From a virus (Duplodnaviria; Caudoviricetes): DNA of 64,000 nucleotides. Numbering within the stretch: position 1 is the stretch's first letter; each line of letters opens with the position of its first letter. Of the stretch, positions 32,188-35,775 are shown piece after piece. Position numbers and translations under genes: made by a program. The notes under the pieces were generated by a model. The model saw only the letters and a program-made list of their open reading frames with translations, ran no database searches and was not told where the DNA came from. The DNA lies in the IMG/VR virus record IMGVR_UViG_3300025389_001023, positions 50,542 to 114,541 of that record; one strand, given 5' to 3'.

Positions 32188-32628
32188 TTATGCACGTGCC
32201 TTTTTTAATGTGCTACGCAACATCCAAGCCTTCTTGTTATATAATGCTTGTAATTCAGCCATGTAATTAGCGATATCTTGTGCATTTTGTGCTGATGCAA
32301 TTTCAAACACTTCAATAATTAATGCGATAATTTGTTCGCTGTTTTCTAATAATTCAGCCAACATCAACTCAGCACGTGGAATTTTATATTGTTCTTCAAT
32401 AATACTTAACTCAAGCATTCTTGCCACGCTACCAGGAGCATATGTATCCAATGCTCTGATATGTTCAGCAATAGTATCAATTGTTTCGTATACTTCACCG
32501 TACATTGTGTTTAAGAATTCATGATATTGTGGGAAGTCAGGGCCTTCAATATTCCAATGAAAGCCATGTGTCTTAGTGTAAAGCACAAAACTACTACCTA
32601 ATAATGTTTTTAATTTATCTGCTAACAT
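32188..32628 (-). CDS. dps: Dps DNA-protection ferritin
   Basis: HGFHWNIEG..F...H, D.IAEHIR and K.AWML motifs. Confidence 0.92.
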   Translation of the reverse strand: MLADKLKTLLGSSFVLYTKTHGFHWNIEGPDFPQYHEFLNTMYGEVYETIDTIAEHIRALDTYAPGSVARMLELSIIEEQYKIPRAELMLAELLENSEQIIALIIEVFEIASAQNAQDIANYMAELQALYNKKAWMLRSTLKKARA

Positions 32629-34618
32629 TTTTTACCCCACTCATTATTGATGATTCGTTCTTTGATGTTTTTGCAGAGTCTTTAAATGCTTGTGCTGTGG
32701 GCGCGCCTTTGCTACCAGGCTTACGCATGTGTTCATGTGAACCATGTTTAATGCGTTCACGTTTTGCATGAATATTAGCCCATAGACCCGGGTGTTTGCT
32801 ATCAGCTTCCGCTACGCTTTCATTCCATTTCTCGCCACGCATCTGTTTTATAAATGTATTGACTTCCATGAAACCAAGATAGTTGTTGTCTACCAAATAT
32901 TTAATAATATCTTCTAATGATTTACCTTTACGCATCTCTTTATGAGCAAAGTCTACCATGTTGTAAAAACTGTCTTCGTGGTCAATAAACTCGGCATCGT
33001 GTTCACCTTCCGCTAGACCTTTTTGTTTTCTAACCCAGTAGTCAGGATTATGCCCATACAATTTAGCAAACATAACATGTAAGTCTTTACCATCATTGCT
33101 TAAATTATATTTTTTAGAAATAGCTTTCATTAATCTATCAACTGTGTCATAATCTATATTAGTTAATTTTTTTAGATTTTTTGCTAATACTTTTGCAGGA
33201 CGATTACCATCAACTTGTGCACCTTCCGCCACACCTTGCTTTACGCTTTCCATAGTTGATCTTGAGGTATTCATTGCTTTAATAAGCGAGGCATATAATT
33301 TATCACAGCTAACAATTACTGGTTTTAATGATTGTTCTATATATTGATTAGGAGATTTAGTATACAATGAATATTCTCTATATATCAACTCATCTTGTAT
33401 TTTATCAGCAATTTGTTGTCCCAAATACTTACCAGCAATTTGACTTAGTTTAGCCCCTTTATTTGCAAATTTTTCATTTTTACTAATTTCATATGCTAAA
33501 AAATAATATGCGGAACATTGTGCGGCAGTTTTGGCTATTTCGATTGTATTTTTATCTCTTTCGTCTTGATTTGTAAATTGTTGGCCATTGGCAACACCAG
33601 TCGCACCAGCACCCACAGCCGCCGCACCCAAGCCCTTTAAGAATCCTCTACGGTCTACTTCTTCTAATGAGCCTTCCGCCACACCTTGCTTAACAAACTG
33701 AACATTTAATTTAGCATTTTTCCACAATGGATTTTTAGGATCCATTCTTTGCTGTAGTAACCATATAGCAGATACTCTGTGTGCGCCATCTTCAAACTTA
33801 CCGTTTAATACTATTGCCGGAGGCAACTTCGCTAAACTTTCTGGATGATCCTTCAAGTAAGTAGCATACTCTATAACTTTTTTAGTGACGCCCCAACTAT
33901 AATCTTTAGCGTCCCAATCATCAACTACATTATTATAATAAGGCACCCCCGGCACAGATGATATAATATCTTTTACAGTCATTTGGCGAGTTTGTATTTT
34001 AGCATCGGAGCCAAACTGTTTTGGAGCACCTGAACTTGGTCCCGGTTGAGGGAAGCCTTCCGCCACACCTTGCTTGGCCATGGCAATTGCTGCCTGTTGT
34101 TTTCGTGTATGACCATGACTATTTTTTGCAACTTCATCCAACTCATCAGGATTTTCTAATTCATATTCTAAATCTTCAACTTGATTTTGTACATCACGTA
34201 GTTTATCTGTAAAGGCTTCTTCTAGACCATATACTGCTGATTCTAATTCATTGAATGCATCTAACACTTGATTCTCTGCATAGCGCAACTCACTGGCATC
34301 AATACCTGCTTTTTGTGCCAGTTGCTTGATACCATTCATGATACCATGTATAGTATCATCATGCTTAATAGCTTTAGTTGTTTGTCTTACTTGATTGATA
34401 ACAGCTTCTAAATTATATTGCTGTTGTTGCAATTGTTGAAGATTTTGTTGTATTTGTTCTTTGCTTTCAGAAATCATACCCAATGATTTCTTTAATGCAT
34501 CAGCTACACGCTTTTTACCACCCTTATCCATTTTATCAATAAGGGTTTTAACCTGCATGTAGTTAGTAGTATTAGCAATTTCTGCTTTTTCTTCTTCGGT
34601 AAGTTTTCTATAAGACAT
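32615..34618 (-). CDS. modular polyprotein: coiled coil, ParB/Srx-like domain, Tat-signal-led domain and small modules joined by (G)VAE(G) linkers
   Basis: three KQGVAEG linkers plus GLAEG and SVAEA; LPPAIV...EDGAHR; DRRGFLK. Confidence 0.75.
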   Translation of the reverse strand: MSYRKLTEEEKAEIANTTNYMQVKTLIDKMDKGGKKRVADALKKSLGMISESKEQIQQNLQQLQQQQYNLEAVINQVRQTTKAIKHDDTIHGIMNGIKQLAQKAGIDASELRYAENQVLDAFNELESAVYGLEEAFTDKLRDVQNQVEDLEYELENPDELDEVAKNSHGHTRKQQAAIAMAKQGVAEGFPQPGPSSGAPKQFGSDAKIQTRQMTVKDIISSVPGVPYYNNVVDDWDAKDYSWGVTKKVIEYATYLKDHPESLAKLPPAIVLNGKFEDGAHRVSAIWLLQQRMDPKNPLWKNAKLNVQFVKQGVAEGSLEEVDRRGFLKGLGAAAVGAGATGVANGQQFTNQDERDKNTIEIAKTAAQCSAYYFLAYEISKNEKFANKGAKLSQIAGKYLGQQIADKIQDELIYREYSLYTKSPNQYIEQSLKPVIVSCDKLYASLIKAMNTSRSTMESVKQGVAEGAQVDGNRPAKVLAKNLKKLTNIDYDTVDRLMKAISKKYNLSNDGKDLHVMFAKLYGHNPDYWVRKQKGLAEGEHDAEFIDHEDSFYNMVDFAHKEMRKGKSLEDIIKYLVDNNYLGFMEVNTFIKQMRGEKWNESVAEADSKHPGLWANIHAKRERIKHGSHEHMRKPGSKGAPTAQAFKDSAKTSKNESSIMSGVKNVSR
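33222..34075 (-). repeat. three exact 20-bp direct repeats AAGCAAGGTGTGGCGGAAGG
   Basis: copies at 33222-33241, 33672-33691 and 34056-34075; degenerate copies near 32806, 33006 and 34760. Confidence 0.92.
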
Positions 34619-34620
34619 GA

Positions 34621-35775
34621 TTATTTCTTCTTATTTTTGTTATCTAACATACCACGTTTGTTAGCTGTTTTCCAAGTAATAGTTTCTGCTTCTTTTTTAC
34701 CATGACCAGCTTTGATTTCGCTTTTCTTTACGTCTTTAACAAACTTGTCTACTTTTTTACCTTCTGCTACACCTTGTTCTTGACCCAAAGCCTGTTTAAT
34801 AAATGCTTGATGTTGTGGTTCTAAATCAGCCAGCATTTGTTTTGCCTGAGCAGTTTTATACTGTTGTCTTGCTACATCTGCCATAGCATAAGCACTGGCT
34901 AGTTTTGAAGCCTGGCTAGCTAACTCTGGATTATCTTTTAACCAAGAACGAATACTTCCATAAGCACTAGCTCTATCAACTGGATTTAAATCTTTTAATT
35001 TATTAAGTTTACCAGCAACAAATGGATCCATACCCTCTGACATTTTTCCAACATTTTCATCAATTGGCTTTTCTTCTGTACTCAATACTTCATGTACAGT
35101 TTGCAGTCTGTCATTTGCCACTGTGATATAACTATATTCCCATGTGTCTAGTTTTTTACCTTGCTTTAATAAAGCATAAACTAATTTTGAATTCTTTACA
35201 ATATTACGTAACTCACCTTCAGCCATTGAATCCATTTCTGAACCTGCATCACAACTGGCTTCATATGCTAAACCACCTGCAATCACACCACCATTTTCAT
35301 TCATAGCATCTGGATCATGTTTCATTTCTTGTGCGCTAATTAAATAATCCATAACACTTACCATCATGCTTTTAACAGCACCAATCTTTTCGCTCATCCA
35401 TTCTGGGAATTCATCATGTGTTGATAATTCTTTATCTAAGTGACTTGCCACACGAACAATAGTATGTAAACTGTTTTTGAATGTTTCACCCTCTGAGTCT
35501 CTGTCATTTGACATAAATCCAGATTTTCTTAATCTACCTAGTCTAGGATTAAGAATAATATCGTCTTCTTCTAATGTTGCCTCTGAAACTTTGCCTTCAA
35601 TAATACTGTTGGCATAAGGACCTTTTTTCTTGGCTTTACCTGTCATTACTTTACCAACAGGTTTTAATCCTGGAACATTTACACTTTCACGTGTTTGTGT
35701 ACTTAACGGCATAGCTACTGTAGATATTGATCCAGCTGTAGTAGTTGCGTTTTCTATTATTTGCTTGATTCTCAT
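34621..35775 (-). CDS. modular head-internal-type protein with a duplicated helical domain
   Basis: N-terminus MRIKQIIE; IIEG, LEED, MNEN, IDEN, MSEG and GVAEG linkers; late box at 35799-35804. Confidence 0.7.
   Translation of the reverse strand: MRIKQIIENATTTAGSISTVAMPLSTQTRESVNVPGLKPVGKVMTGKAKKKGPYANSIIEGKVSEATLEEDDIILNPRLGRLRKSGFMSNDRDSEGETFKNSLHTIVRVASHLDKELSTHDEFPEWMSEKIGAVKSMMVSVMDYLISAQEMKHDPDAMNENGGVIAGGLAYEASCDAGSEMDSMAEGELRNIVKNSKLVYALLKQGKKLDTWEYSYITVANDRLQTVHEVLSTEEKPIDENVGKMSEGMDPFVAGKLNKLKDLNPVDRASAYGSIRSWLKDNPELASQASKLASAYAMADVARQQYKTAQAKQMLADLEPQHQAFIKQALGQEQGVAEGKKVDKFVKDVKKSEIKAGHGKKEAETITWKTANKRGMLDNKNKKK

What the first reader, a model, noticed from the sequence alone, without database searches (positions are those of the whole stretch)
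32615..34780. Cassette-built polyprotein: an exact 20-bp repeat encodes the linker between unrelated domains
Seen: AAGCAAGGTGTGGCGGAAGG (KQGVAEG) occurs three times with no mismatch, 450 and 384 bp apart, always in frame. It keeps GC-rich GTG GCG codons in an AT-rich genome. Degenerate copies lie near 32806, 33006 and 34760. The repeats delimit unrelated modules: a ParB/Srx-like domain, a Tat-led domain, small helical modules and a basic C-terminal module. Known: the T4 prohead protease gp21 cuts after Glu in (L/I)-x-E sites of head-internal proteins. Inference: one element may serve both as a DNA recombination joint for swapping cargo cassettes and as a protease site that frees each cargo inside the head. 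That would be an integron-like array of virion-delivered effectors.
Basis: partly seen in the sequence, partly recalled or inferred. Interest (0 to 1): 0.88.

Follow-up and report, generated by a model that had tools for sequence, protein, structure and literature searches.

The report
Swappable in-frame joints in phage polyproteins
A giant uncultured T4-like phage builds long proteins from unrelated small modules joined by one 7-residue linker whose 20-base DNA is kept letter-perfect across hundreds of phage contigs; modules are swapped exactly at this linker, which also looks like a cutting site for the phage's head protease (cutting is not proven).

Summary
AAGCAAGGTGTGGCGGAAGG (KQGVAEG) lies three times, exact and in frame, in a 667-aa minus-strand ORF, with three weaker copies where stated.

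The repeat is far from local. The same 20-mer occurs in more than 120 IMG/VR contigs, always in frame, between unrelated flanks. All large carriers tested scale to one group of about 350-kb T4-like phages.

About 59% of KQGVAEG sites use this one spelling (expected about 0.15%), despite rare GTG and GCG codons. Silent sites in the linker stay conserved where the adjoining homologous cassette is saturated.

Cassette exchange at the linker is shown directly:
- The window's 363-nt second cassette is 99.7% identical on two other contigs, with identity falling to random beyond both linkers.
- A 96-100% identical allele (P0002) has other cassettes swapped in at the linkers.

The protease-site reading is supported only indirectly:
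- Linker variants all keep hydrophobic-x-Glu.
- T4-like capsid-targeting leaders sometimes merge into the linker.
- Twin-arginine signals always sit just after a linker.
- Complete relatives encode a T4-type prohead protease.

No cleavage or packaging data exist. "Integron-like" holds only by analogy: no integrase, no attC-like structure, one to four canonical linkers per genome.

This scan noted the same system earlier on other DNA. I found no published description.

The parts
32615..34618 (-). 667-aa polyprotein gene: six cassettes (A1-A6) joined by five linkers
   Evidence: ORF; module map; the exact protein is recorded on 3 contigs
34076..34618 (-). Cassette A1 (aa 1-181), coiled-coil-like. 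Its N-terminus MSYRKLTE ends in L-T-E but is not a canonical leader
   Evidence: Only weak coiled-coil hits. A1 is shared at 96% with P0002 and 71% with L202. Its first ~50 aa form an internal cassette after a linker in L211
34055..34075 (-). Linker 1, KQGVAEG, exact 20-mer
33692..34054 (-). Cassette A2 (aa 189-309), with a DGAHR motif; possibly ParB/Srx-like (unverified)
   Evidence: 99.7% nt identical in L174 and L176, with random flanks beyond both linkers. Found in 41 loci in about 30 contexts. Fold and family unresolved
33671..33691 (-). Linker 2, KQGVAEG, exact 20-mer
33242..33670 (-). Cassette A3 (aa 317-459): twin-arginine (Tat) signal at its very start (VDRRGFLKG..., about 33590-33658), then a helical domain of unknown function
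   Evidence: TIGR01409 above its cut-off; weak Pfam TAT_signal hit. All 7 distinct Tat motifs in linker-bearing ORFs sit just after a linker or a degenerate one
33221..33241 (-). Linker 3, KQGVAEG, exact 20-mer
33026..33220 (-). Cassette A4 (aa 467-531), function unknown
   Evidence: 96% identical in P0002, 82% in P0005; 35-47% relatives in other contexts
33005..33025 (-). Linker 4, QKGLAEG (degenerate copy)
   Evidence: The same linker in P0002 is followed by a different cassette
32825..33004 (-). Cassette A5 (aa 539-598), function unknown
   Evidence: 90-93% identical in P0003 and P0004; replaced by another cassette in P0002
32804..32824 (-). Linker 5, NESVAEA (degenerate copy)
32618..32803 (-). 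Cassette A6 (aa 606-667), small basic module
   Evidence: phrog_16028, E 9e-23. It is mostly annotated as a hypothetical protein in marine and freshwater podoviruses. It follows a leader directly in L114
34621..35775 (-). 384-aa polyprotein gene upstream. Leader MRIKQIIENATTTAGSISTV resembles the T4 IPI leader. It has internal MDSMAEG (35215-35235) and EQGVAEG (34759-34779) joints and a basic tail cassette B2 (34624-34758)
   Evidence: The homolog in L202 keeps the N-part and B2 but has a different middle
35828..37153 (-). 441-aa nucleotidyltransferase + DUF6934 protein. Its halves occur elsewhere as cassettes in linker-bearing polyproteins
   Evidence: Pfam and PHROG hits; L141, L043 and L202
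30606..31421 (-). GH19 lysozyme/chitinase-like protein. Leader MRAKEFVIE is T4-CTS-like. LEEG is followed by a Gly/Ala-rich hydrophobic segment that follows KQGVAEG elsewhere
   Evidence: (L041, L063)
31422..32186 (-). 254-aa protein with the leader MRATDFVTE. Function unassigned; a short stretch looks like an acetyltransferase motif by eye only
   Evidence: no Pfam hit

Best explanation
ORF 32615-34618 and its upstream neighbour 34621-35775 are cargo polyproteins of an uncultured T4-like phage of about 350 kb. Each is a chain of self-contained small protein cassettes joined by the linker [K/E]-Q-G-V-A-E-G.

Shown here by comparison: the 20-bp coding sequence of the linker is a shared microhomology. 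At it, whole cassettes are inserted, deleted and replaced in frame, between genes and between phages of this group. Its silent positions are conserved beyond the level of the flanking cassettes.

Inferred: the same linker is a T4-type prohead-protease site (hydrophobic-x-Glu, cut after Glu). An N-terminal T4-like capsid-targeting leader would take the chain into the prohead. The gp21-like protease would then cut it into separate proteins, which would travel with the DNA into the next cell. One of them would then have a free N-terminal Tat signal for export to the periplasm.

The G+C-rich spelling in an A+T-rich genome is best explained by transmission bias. Cassettes whose joints stay identical to the common pool keep moving; joints that drift become dead ends.
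For: Recombination joint:
All 132 matches are in frame in long ORFs, with combinatorially different flanks.
- In 596 Gb of bacterial genomes there are only 5 hits, and only one is a true member, on a phage-like contig.
- In a sample chosen by peptide only, 67 of 114 KQGVAEG sites are this one spelling. Codon shares in the linker versus the same ORFs outside it are GTG 83% vs 20%, GCG 88% vs 8.5% and AAG 83% vs 31%.
- Silent sites: pairs with diverged homologous flanks have flank codon identity 0.51-0.54 (chance 0.50) but linker identity 0.73-0.81.
- In a sample chosen through cassette A2 and blind to the linker, the cassette scores 0.54 and the linkers 0.81 and 0.73.
- Cassette A2 is 99.7% nt identical in L174 and L176, with about 30% identity in the 90 nt beyond both linkers.
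- No protein among 5.8 billion shares more than 48% of the architecture.
- P0002 has A1 at 96%, A4 at 96% and A6 at 100%, but other cassettes swapped in exactly at the linkers.
- The syntenic locus L202 differs by whole cassettes.

Protease site:
- About 30 contexts of A2 carry linker variants (VAEG, MAEG, MTEG, VTED, ITEA, INES, VWED, MNED and others). Nearly all keep a hydrophobic residue at -3 and Glu at -1.
- T4-family prohead proteases cut after Glu in such short motifs (PMC5694885, PMC9026906).
- 41% of linker-bearing ORFs, against 13% of other ORFs in the same loci, start with M-x2-3-[EDQNH]-[FILMV]-[FILMVT]-x0-1-[ED] (p = 1.4e-9). This resembles T4 IPII/IPIII MKTYQEFIAE and IPI MKTFKEFTSTTTPVSTITE.
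- In P0026 the leader runs straight into the linker: MRASEFVVAEG|VPQPG.
- All 7 distinct twin-arginine motifs lie within about 5-10 residues of a linker or a degenerate linker. The window's motif passes TIGR01409.
- A6 is mostly annotated as a hypothetical protein in podoviruses.
- All 4 nearly complete carrier genomes have a gp23-type capsid protein. The two searched for the protease have peptidase S77.
Against: - No cleavage, packaging or injection has been measured for any member.
- This 114-kb fragment carries no prohead protease or capsid gene.
- The 667-aa ORF itself lacks the canonical leader (MSYRKLTE only ends in L-T-E).
- The conserved linker is longer than a hydrophobic-x-Glu site needs.
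- A 20-bp homology is short for classical homologous recombination.
- A Tat signal on a protein that must first be packed in a capsid is unusual.
- Complete genomes hold only 1-3 canonical linkers, so this is not a large array.
- The silent-site excess rests on tens to about 140 sequence pairs that are not phylogenetically independent.
Confidence: 0.6

Rival explanations
1. The linker is an uncut flexible spacer between domains of true multidomain proteins. Its DNA identity serves or reflects recombination only, and the modules act while tethered.
For: There is no direct evidence of cutting. Gly/Ala-rich short linkers are common. The recombination evidence does not need a protease.
Against: Variant linkers keep hydrophobic-x-Glu rather than mere flexibility. 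Tat signals, which need a free N-terminus, always sit just after a linker. Leaders merge with the linker. A6 is mostly annotated as a hypothetical protein elsewhere.
Confidence: 0.17
2. The chains are cut at the linker, but in the infected cell's cytoplasm by another protease and not inside the capsid. The modules would act during the same infection, for example by Tat export to the periplasm late in infection.
For: The Tat signal fits a cytoplasmic precursor more simply. The polyprotein genes are not next to head genes in complete relatives. ORF667 lacks the canonical leader.
Against: Pfam found no peptidase domain in either polyprotein. T4-like capsid-targeting leaders are enriched on linker-bearing ORFs. 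The site matches the specificity class of the T4-type protease that complete relatives encode.
Confidence: 0.12
3. The silent-site conservation reflects a function in RNA or translation, such as a pause site between domains or an RNase or regulatory site, rather than recombination.
For: Rare codons GTG and GCG are retained. A purine-rich AAGG..GGAAGG stretch could interact with the ribosome (my inference, untested).
Against: Breakpoints of recent exchanges fall exactly in the 15-20 nt of identity. The match to the anti-Shine-Dalgarno sequence is poor on inspection. Nothing requires an RNA function.
Confidence: 0.07
4. The 20-mer is the target of a dedicated site-specific recombinase or homing nuclease, making this a true integron-like system.
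For: The sequence is exactly conserved over many genomes.
Against: No tyrosine recombinase lies on this fragment (serine recombinases were not searched). There is no inverted repeat or dyad in or around the site. The site is not palindromic. Variant linkers also bound swapped cassettes.
Confidence: 0.03
5. The mosaic junctions are metagenome assembly chimeras formed at a shared 20-mer.
For: All sequences come from short-read assemblies. The window's own A1-A2-A3 junctions are seen only in this protein.
Against: The exact 667-aa protein is recorded on 3 contigs. Identical junctions recur in contigs from different metagenomes: L047/L068/L074, L028/L048/L089 and L175-L177. 20 nt is shorter than usual final assembler k-mers (general knowledge). 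All junctions keep the reading frame.
Confidence: 0.01

Closest known systems
Phage T4 internal proteins IPI, IPII, IPIII and Alt: capsid-targeting sequence plus gp21 processing (PMC9026906, PMC3012670, PMC9958956)
   Same: Both have short N-terminal leaders of the M-K-x-x-Q-E-F-I-A-E type ending in hydrophobic-x-Glu. Both have highly diverse, fast-changing cargo. Complete relatives here encode a T4-type prohead protease and a gp23 capsid protein.
   Different: T4 cargo proteins are single genes with one leader each. Here many cargos are strung in one ORF and the cut-site motif recurs between them. Packaging and cutting are not shown here.
Polyvalent proteins of phages and conjugative elements (Iyer et al. 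2017, PMC5512222)
   Same: Both are long phage proteins combining unrelated conflict-type domains. Relatives here carry ParB_N, deaminase, GNAT, NUDIX, nucleotidyltransferase and lysozyme domains. Both are proposed to be packed in the virion and released as units.
   Different: Those proteins are proposed to be processed by an embedded metallopeptidase domain, and that paper never mentions a linker. Here Pfam finds no embedded peptidase. A repeated, DNA-conserved linker separates the modules.
Recombination at short conserved in-frame motifs in T-even tail-fibre adhesins (gp38 glycine-rich motifs; PMC3157838)
   Same: Short conserved coding motifs flank variable segments, and crossovers within them swap segments in frame.
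   Different: The gp38 motifs are structural parts of one folded domain, and the swapped parts are loops of one protein. Here the swapped units are whole unrelated proteins and the motif is a spacer or cut site.
PeSL regulatory cassettes mediating modular shuffling in T4-type genomes (PMC2839356)
   Same: A short repeated sequence spread through T4-type genomes serves as the crossover point for gain, loss and replacement of accessory genes.
   Different: PeSLs are intergenic promoter-terminator units that move whole genes. The linker here is inside ORFs and keeps the reading frame.
Integron gene cassettes
   Same: Both show a pool of promoterless cassettes inserted at a common joint.
   Different: No integrase and no attC-like structure were found. 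The joint is translated, and arrays are short.

Membership tests
T4-type capsid-targeted, gp21-processed head cargo | N-terminal capsid-targeting leader of about 10-20 residues ending in hydrophobic-x-Glu | tested here: inconclusive
   Met for ORF384 (MRIKQIIE...), the GH19 gene (MRAKEFVIE) and the 254-aa gene (MRATDFVTE). Enriched on linker-bearing ORFs (41% vs 13%). T4 leaders were read from AF158101. ORF667 itself has only MSYRKLTE.
T4-type capsid-targeted, gp21-processed head cargo | Prohead protease of family S77 (gp21) in the same genome | tested here: inconclusive
   Absent from this 30%-complete fragment. Present in 3 of 5 large linker-bearing relatives, including both complete ones.
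T4-type capsid-targeted, gp21-processed head cargo | Cleavage after Glu at the motif, shown on the protein | not testable with these tools
   Only sequence evidence is available: hydrophobic-x-Glu is kept in nearly all linker variants.
T4-type capsid-targeted, gp21-processed head cargo | Presence in virions and delivery into the host | not testable with these tools
   No isolate or proteome exists. GenBank phages hold only the A6 module.
Polyvalent proteins (Iyer et al. 2017) | Several unrelated conflict-type domains in one phage polypeptide | tested here: inconclusive
   Six unrelated modules are clear, but only the Tat signal and phrog_16028 are recognisable in ORF667. Relatives carry ParB_N, deaminase, GNAT, NUDIX and GH19 cassettes.
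Polyvalent proteins (Iyer et al. 2017) | Embedded peptidase (MPTase) proposed to release the domains | tested here: not met
   Pfam finds no peptidase family in ORF667 or ORF384, and NCBIfam finds none above its cut-off (one chance-level HtpX match on the coiled-coil A1).
Integron | Adjacent tyrosine recombinase (IntI) | tested here: not met
   PF00589 has no match in the 114.5-kb record, while the control genomes all match. The record is a fragment.
Integron | attC-type imperfect inverted repeats at cassette ends | tested here: not met
   No inverted repeats in 32500-35900. The 20-mer is not palindromic.
Motif-mediated modular shuffling in T4-type phages (gp38 GRM, PeSL) | A short conserved sequence bounds variable segments, and exchange breakpoints fall within it | tested here: met
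ParB/Srx fold (module A2) | Significant match to ParB_N or a confident ParB/Srx-like model | tested here: inconclusive
   No Pfam hit for any of 17 members. AlphaFold pLDDT 47.6. No PDB profile match at a meaningful E-value (best 0.034, an unrelated helix protein). hhalign to the true ParB_N cassette gives 28% over the LPP..V..DGxHR core. The Atlas gives only a lead.

The most novel reading that the evidence does not exclude
This would be an integrase-free, in-frame cassette system. A pool of small protein genes, shared across one phage group, moves between cargo polyprotein genes through a 20-bp G+C-rich joint. That joint is kept letter-perfect because only matching joints keep exchanging. 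The joint doubles as the prohead-protease site. So any cassette that lands at a joint is automatically packaged, cut free and injected, and some are then rerouted by their own signals (for example Tat) in the new host.
Probability: 0.45. Interest if true: 0.9.

Novelty: new variant of a known kind. Interest (0 to 1): 0.8.

Why it matters
If the reading holds, it shows how large phages renew their injected arsenal without losing the reading frame, the packaging signal or processing. One translated joint would solve recombination, targeting and release at once.

It extends two known ideas to whole proteins strung in one ORF: T4's capsid-targeting and processing, and motif-mediated shuffling.

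It defines hundreds of small cassettes of unknown function as candidate early-acting, host-directed proteins.

It also offers a natural design rule for loading several cargos into T4-type capsids.

It is directly testable by virion N-terminomics and by synonymous recoding of the joint.

Tried and rejected
- blastn of the locus against 50,697 GenBank phages: no match. tblastn found only the C-terminal A6 module.
- Full-text search for KQGVAEG, QGVAEG or GVAEG: nothing relevant.
- Module A2: AlphaFold from a 17-sequence alignment gave pLDDT 47.6, too poor for a fold search. The PDB profile search gave nothing convincing (best E 0.034, an unrelated helix protein). Pfam on all members gave nothing. 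hhalign to the genuine ParB_N cassette gave only 28%. Pfam ParB_N hits in relatives lie in a different cassette downstream of A2.
- T4 late promoter TATAAATA: 5 found against 11.7 expected, so no timing information.
- Frameshift fusing ORF384 to ORF667: no slippery run at the 2-nt junction; rejected.
- Integrase and inverted repeats: none.
- A first strict leader regex under-counted (22% vs 11%) and was replaced by a consensus derived from the N-termini.
- The first breakpoint script had a 2-codon offset and was corrected.
I therefore could not look for cassette-deletion reads or compare P0002 at the DNA level.
- Complex prediction was not used: a protease with a 7-residue site is outside its scope.

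
Full report
**Observation**

The 20-mer AAGCAAGGTGTGGCGGAAGG occurs three times without mismatch on the minus strand, at 33222-33241, 33672-33691 and 34056-34075. None of 100 shuffles gave a match. All three copies read K-Q-G-V-A-E-G in frame inside a 667-aa ORF, 32615..34618(-).

Two copies are identical over 22 nt, and the repeat finder groups a fourth, diverged copy with them.
- QKGLAEG at 33005-33025.
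- NESVAEA at 32804-32824.
- EQGVAEG at 34759-34779, in the adjacent 384-aa ORF 34621..35775(-).

The flanks of the copies are unrelated. In the whole 114.5-kb record, GVAEG occurs only in these two genes. The record has 35.5% G+C. GTG is 10.8% of Val codons, GCG 6.3% of Ala and AAG 24% of Lys, so this spelling has an expected frequency of 7e-4 per site.

**What the genome is**

The window is part of an IMG/VR virus record that CheckV rates 30% complete. Its family B DNA polymerase is closest to Agrobacterium phage Atu_ph07 (46%) and to Klebsiella phages RaK2 and K64-1 (43%).

The fragment has no prohead protease or gp23 gene. However, all 25 larger linker-bearing contigs tested have CheckV completeness values that scale to genomes of about 350 kb. 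The four nearly complete ones (354-360 kb, one with terminal repeats) encode a gp23-type capsid protein. The two of these searched for the protease, plus one 261-kb contig, encode a T4-type protease of family S77 next to scaffold and capsid genes.

**The linker is a shared sequence of the whole group**

All 132 matches are in frame as KQGVAEG inside long ORFs. The flanks recombine freely: one upstream module is followed by several different downstream modules, and the reverse also holds.

As a control, 596 Gb of bacterial and archaeal genomes hold only five matches. Four are chance hits in ordinary cellular genes. One is a phage-like contig binned into a Bacteroidetes MAG.

A scan with the fully degenerate pattern chooses sites by peptide only. 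In that sample, 67 of 114 distinct KQGVAEG sites use the single exact spelling. Most of the rest differ by one silent change. Codon shares in the linker compare with the same ORFs outside linkers as follows:

| Codon | In linker | Outside linker |
|---|---|---|
| AAG (Lys) | 83% | 31% |
| GTG (Val) | 83% | 20% |
| GCG (Ala) | 88% | 8.5% |

**Silent-site conservation**

Take pairs of sites whose upstream flanks are homologous but diverged (40-80% amino-acid identity). Their flanks show codon identity at identical residues of 0.51-0.54, which equals the chance level of 0.50. The linker stays at 0.73-0.81.

A second sample was chosen through peptide patterns inside cassette A2, and so is blind to the linker. 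It gives the same picture. Where the A2 cassette is near saturation (0.54), the right and left linkers score 0.81 and 0.73. The pairs are not phylogenetically independent, so these are effect sizes, not probabilities.

**Cassettes are exchanged at the linker**

- The window's second cassette (A2, 33692-34054) is 99.7% identical over 363 nt on two other contigs, L174 and L176. Identity falls to about 30% in the 90 nt beyond both flanking linkers, and the shared tract ends within 15-21 nt of linker sequence.
- A2 occurs in 41 fetched loci in about 30 different upstream and downstream contexts.
- No IMG/VR contig repeats the module order of ORF667. Among 374 homologs in 5.8 billion proteins, none but the protein itself covers more than 48% of it.
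- The identical 667-aa protein is recorded on three contigs, which argues against a one-off assembly chimera.
- The nearest allele, P0002, shares A1 (96%), A4 (96%) and A6 (100%). It carries one different cassette in place of A2+A3 and another in place of A5. The switches fall exactly at KQGVAEG, QKGLAEG and GLAEA. P0003 to P0005 show further combinations.
- A syntenic locus, L202, has the same gene order: nucleotidyltransferase/DUF6934 gene, ORF384 homolog, ORF667 homolog, Dps-like gene. It shares A1 (71%) and the ends of ORF384 but has different cassettes in between.
- In L211 the first 50 residues of A1 are themselves an internal cassette after a linker.

Both come out against refutation.

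**Is the linker a protease site?**

This part is inference. Four observations support it.

1. Linker variants keep the motif. Around A2 the linker varies at the peptide level: VAEG, VAEA, VAEN, VAED, MAEG, MTEG, VTED, ITEA, INES, VVEN, VWED, MNED and IAEG. Almost every boundary keeps a hydrophobic residue at -3 and Glu at -1. T4-family prohead proteases all cut after Glu in a short motif: A-x-E in SPN3US and S/A/G-x-E in phiKZ (PMC5694885). The L/I-x-E consensus for T4 itself is from my own knowledge.
2. Linker-bearing ORFs are enriched for a T4-like leader. The pattern M-x2-3-[EDQNH]-[FILMV]-[FILMVT]-x0-1-[ED] is found in 41% of them, against 13% of other ORFs in the same loci (Fisher p = 1.4e-9). 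It resembles the T4 capsid-targeting sequences MKTYQEFIAE (IPII, IPIII) and MKTFKEFTSTTTPVSTITE (IPI), which I read from the T4 record. Their roles in targeting and processing are reviewed in PMC9026906. ORF384 starts MRIKQIIENATTTAGSISTV. The neighbouring GH19 and 254-aa genes start MRAKEFVIE and MRATDFVTE. In some relatives the leader runs straight into the linker, as in MRASEFVVAEG|VPQPG in P0026. The linker thus looks like the cut-site half of the leader.
3. Tat signals sit just after linkers. Every one of the seven distinct twin-arginine motifs in linker-bearing ORFs lies within about 5-10 residues of a linker or a degenerate one. The window's motif passes the curated TIGR01409 cut-off when the module is read from the linker onward (24.1 vs 16.7 bits). 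A Tat signal needs a free N-terminus.
4. Module A6 (phrog_16028) lies under small features that are mostly annotated as hypothetical proteins in many podoviruses. This suggests that the modules can work as separate proteins.

Several points count against this reading:
- Nothing has been measured.
- ORF667 itself has only a weak leader.
- The head genes are not on this fragment.
- Complete genomes carry only one to three canonical linkers.

**Why the DNA is conserved**

The most economical reading is transmission bias at a recombination joint. A G+C-rich 20-mer in an A+T-rich genome is a distinctive, stable microhomology. Cassettes with matching joints keep spreading, while drifted joints stop.

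Known precedents in T4-type phages are crossovers inside the short conserved glycine-rich motifs of gp38 (PMC3157838) and PeSL-mediated gene shuffling with mini-circles (PMC2839356). A dedicated recombinase is unlikely: there is no integrase, no inverted repeat and no dyad. An RNA or translational role cannot be excluded.

**Comparison with known systems and novelty**

The system works like T4 internal-protein targeting and processing, combined with motif-mediated shuffling. It resembles the polyvalent proteins of Iyer et al. (PMC5512222), which however rely on an embedded peptidase and have no described linker. I found no paper mentioning the motif.

Earlier notes of this scan describe the same linker system in at least five other genomes. 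They are unchecked AI notes that agree with, but did not shape, the tests made here.

I rate this a new variant of known kinds. The recombination joint is well supported. The protease and packaging part is plausible but unproven.

Noticed in passing
window 29752-30576 (-): 274-aa DNA/RNA non-specific endonuclease (PF01223, E 6e-39) with a classical Sec-type signal peptide (by eye). It sits at the end of the cargo-like gene cluster, and a secreted nuclease in a phage is unusual.
   Followed up: partly
window 30606-31421 (-): GH19 lysozyme/chitinase-like protein. Its T4-CTS-like leader MRAKEFVIE is followed by ...LEEG and a Gly/Ala-rich hydrophobic segment (WKDWVAGAALGAAALGG). In L041 and L063 that segment comes directly after KQGVAEG. 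It may be a packaged or membrane-anchored wall hydrolase.
   Followed up: partly
window 32188-32628 (-), overlapping the end of ORF667 by 14 nt: Dps/ferritin-like protein (PF00210, E 4e-20; phrog_3636). It is conserved in the same position in the syntenic locus L202.
   Followed up: partly
window 35828-37153 (-): 441-aa nucleotidyltransferase + DUF6934 protein. The L202 homolog is 593 aa with extra cassettes inserted. The L141 homolog is 1772 aa with a linker near its end. In L043 the DUF6934 half follows a leader and precedes cassette A2.
   Followed up: partly
window 37168-39504 (-): 778-aa fusion of an NAD-dependent sugar epimerase/dehydratase with a zinc-binding C-methyltransferase (PF01370, PF08421, PF13489, PF08484). 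The two halves are joined by a V-I-E-P/T-V-I-E repeat. Probably a sugar-modification enzyme.
   Followed up: partly
window 44759-47023 (-): 754-aa ClpA/ClpB-type double AAA+ chaperone with a Clp_N domain (phrog_4871, E 3e-236).
   Followed up: partly
window 3593-4867 (+): One of the few plus-strand genes: a 424-aa protein with a GP88 domain (PF17338). Its N-terminus MKFIELFEGATPKLPGAPKGVDIMTPEQF is shared with linker-bearing ORFs in L046, L083 and L128.
   Followed up: partly
window 56508-58991 and 59624-63280 (-): Two very large ORFs (827 and 1218 aa) with no PHROG match at E <= 1e-5.
   Followed up: no
L216 (MAG contig CAILDT010000116.1): A linker-bearing phage-like contig (4 GVAEG in one ORF) is binned into a freshwater Bacteroidetes MAG. 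This is a weak hint about the host, or merely co-binning.
   Followed up: partly
whole window: Nearly all genes lie on the minus strand. The T4 late-promoter word TATAAATA is under-represented (5 found, 11.7 expected), so this group probably uses another late promoter.
   Followed up: partly
P0020, P0026, P0084 and L013/L018/L052: A genuine ParB_N cassette (KI[KR]LYTDP...LDGHHRF...) often lies directly after cassette A2 in relatives. A2 shares only the LPP..V..DGxHR core with it, so the two may be distant paralogs that travel together.
   Followed up: partly
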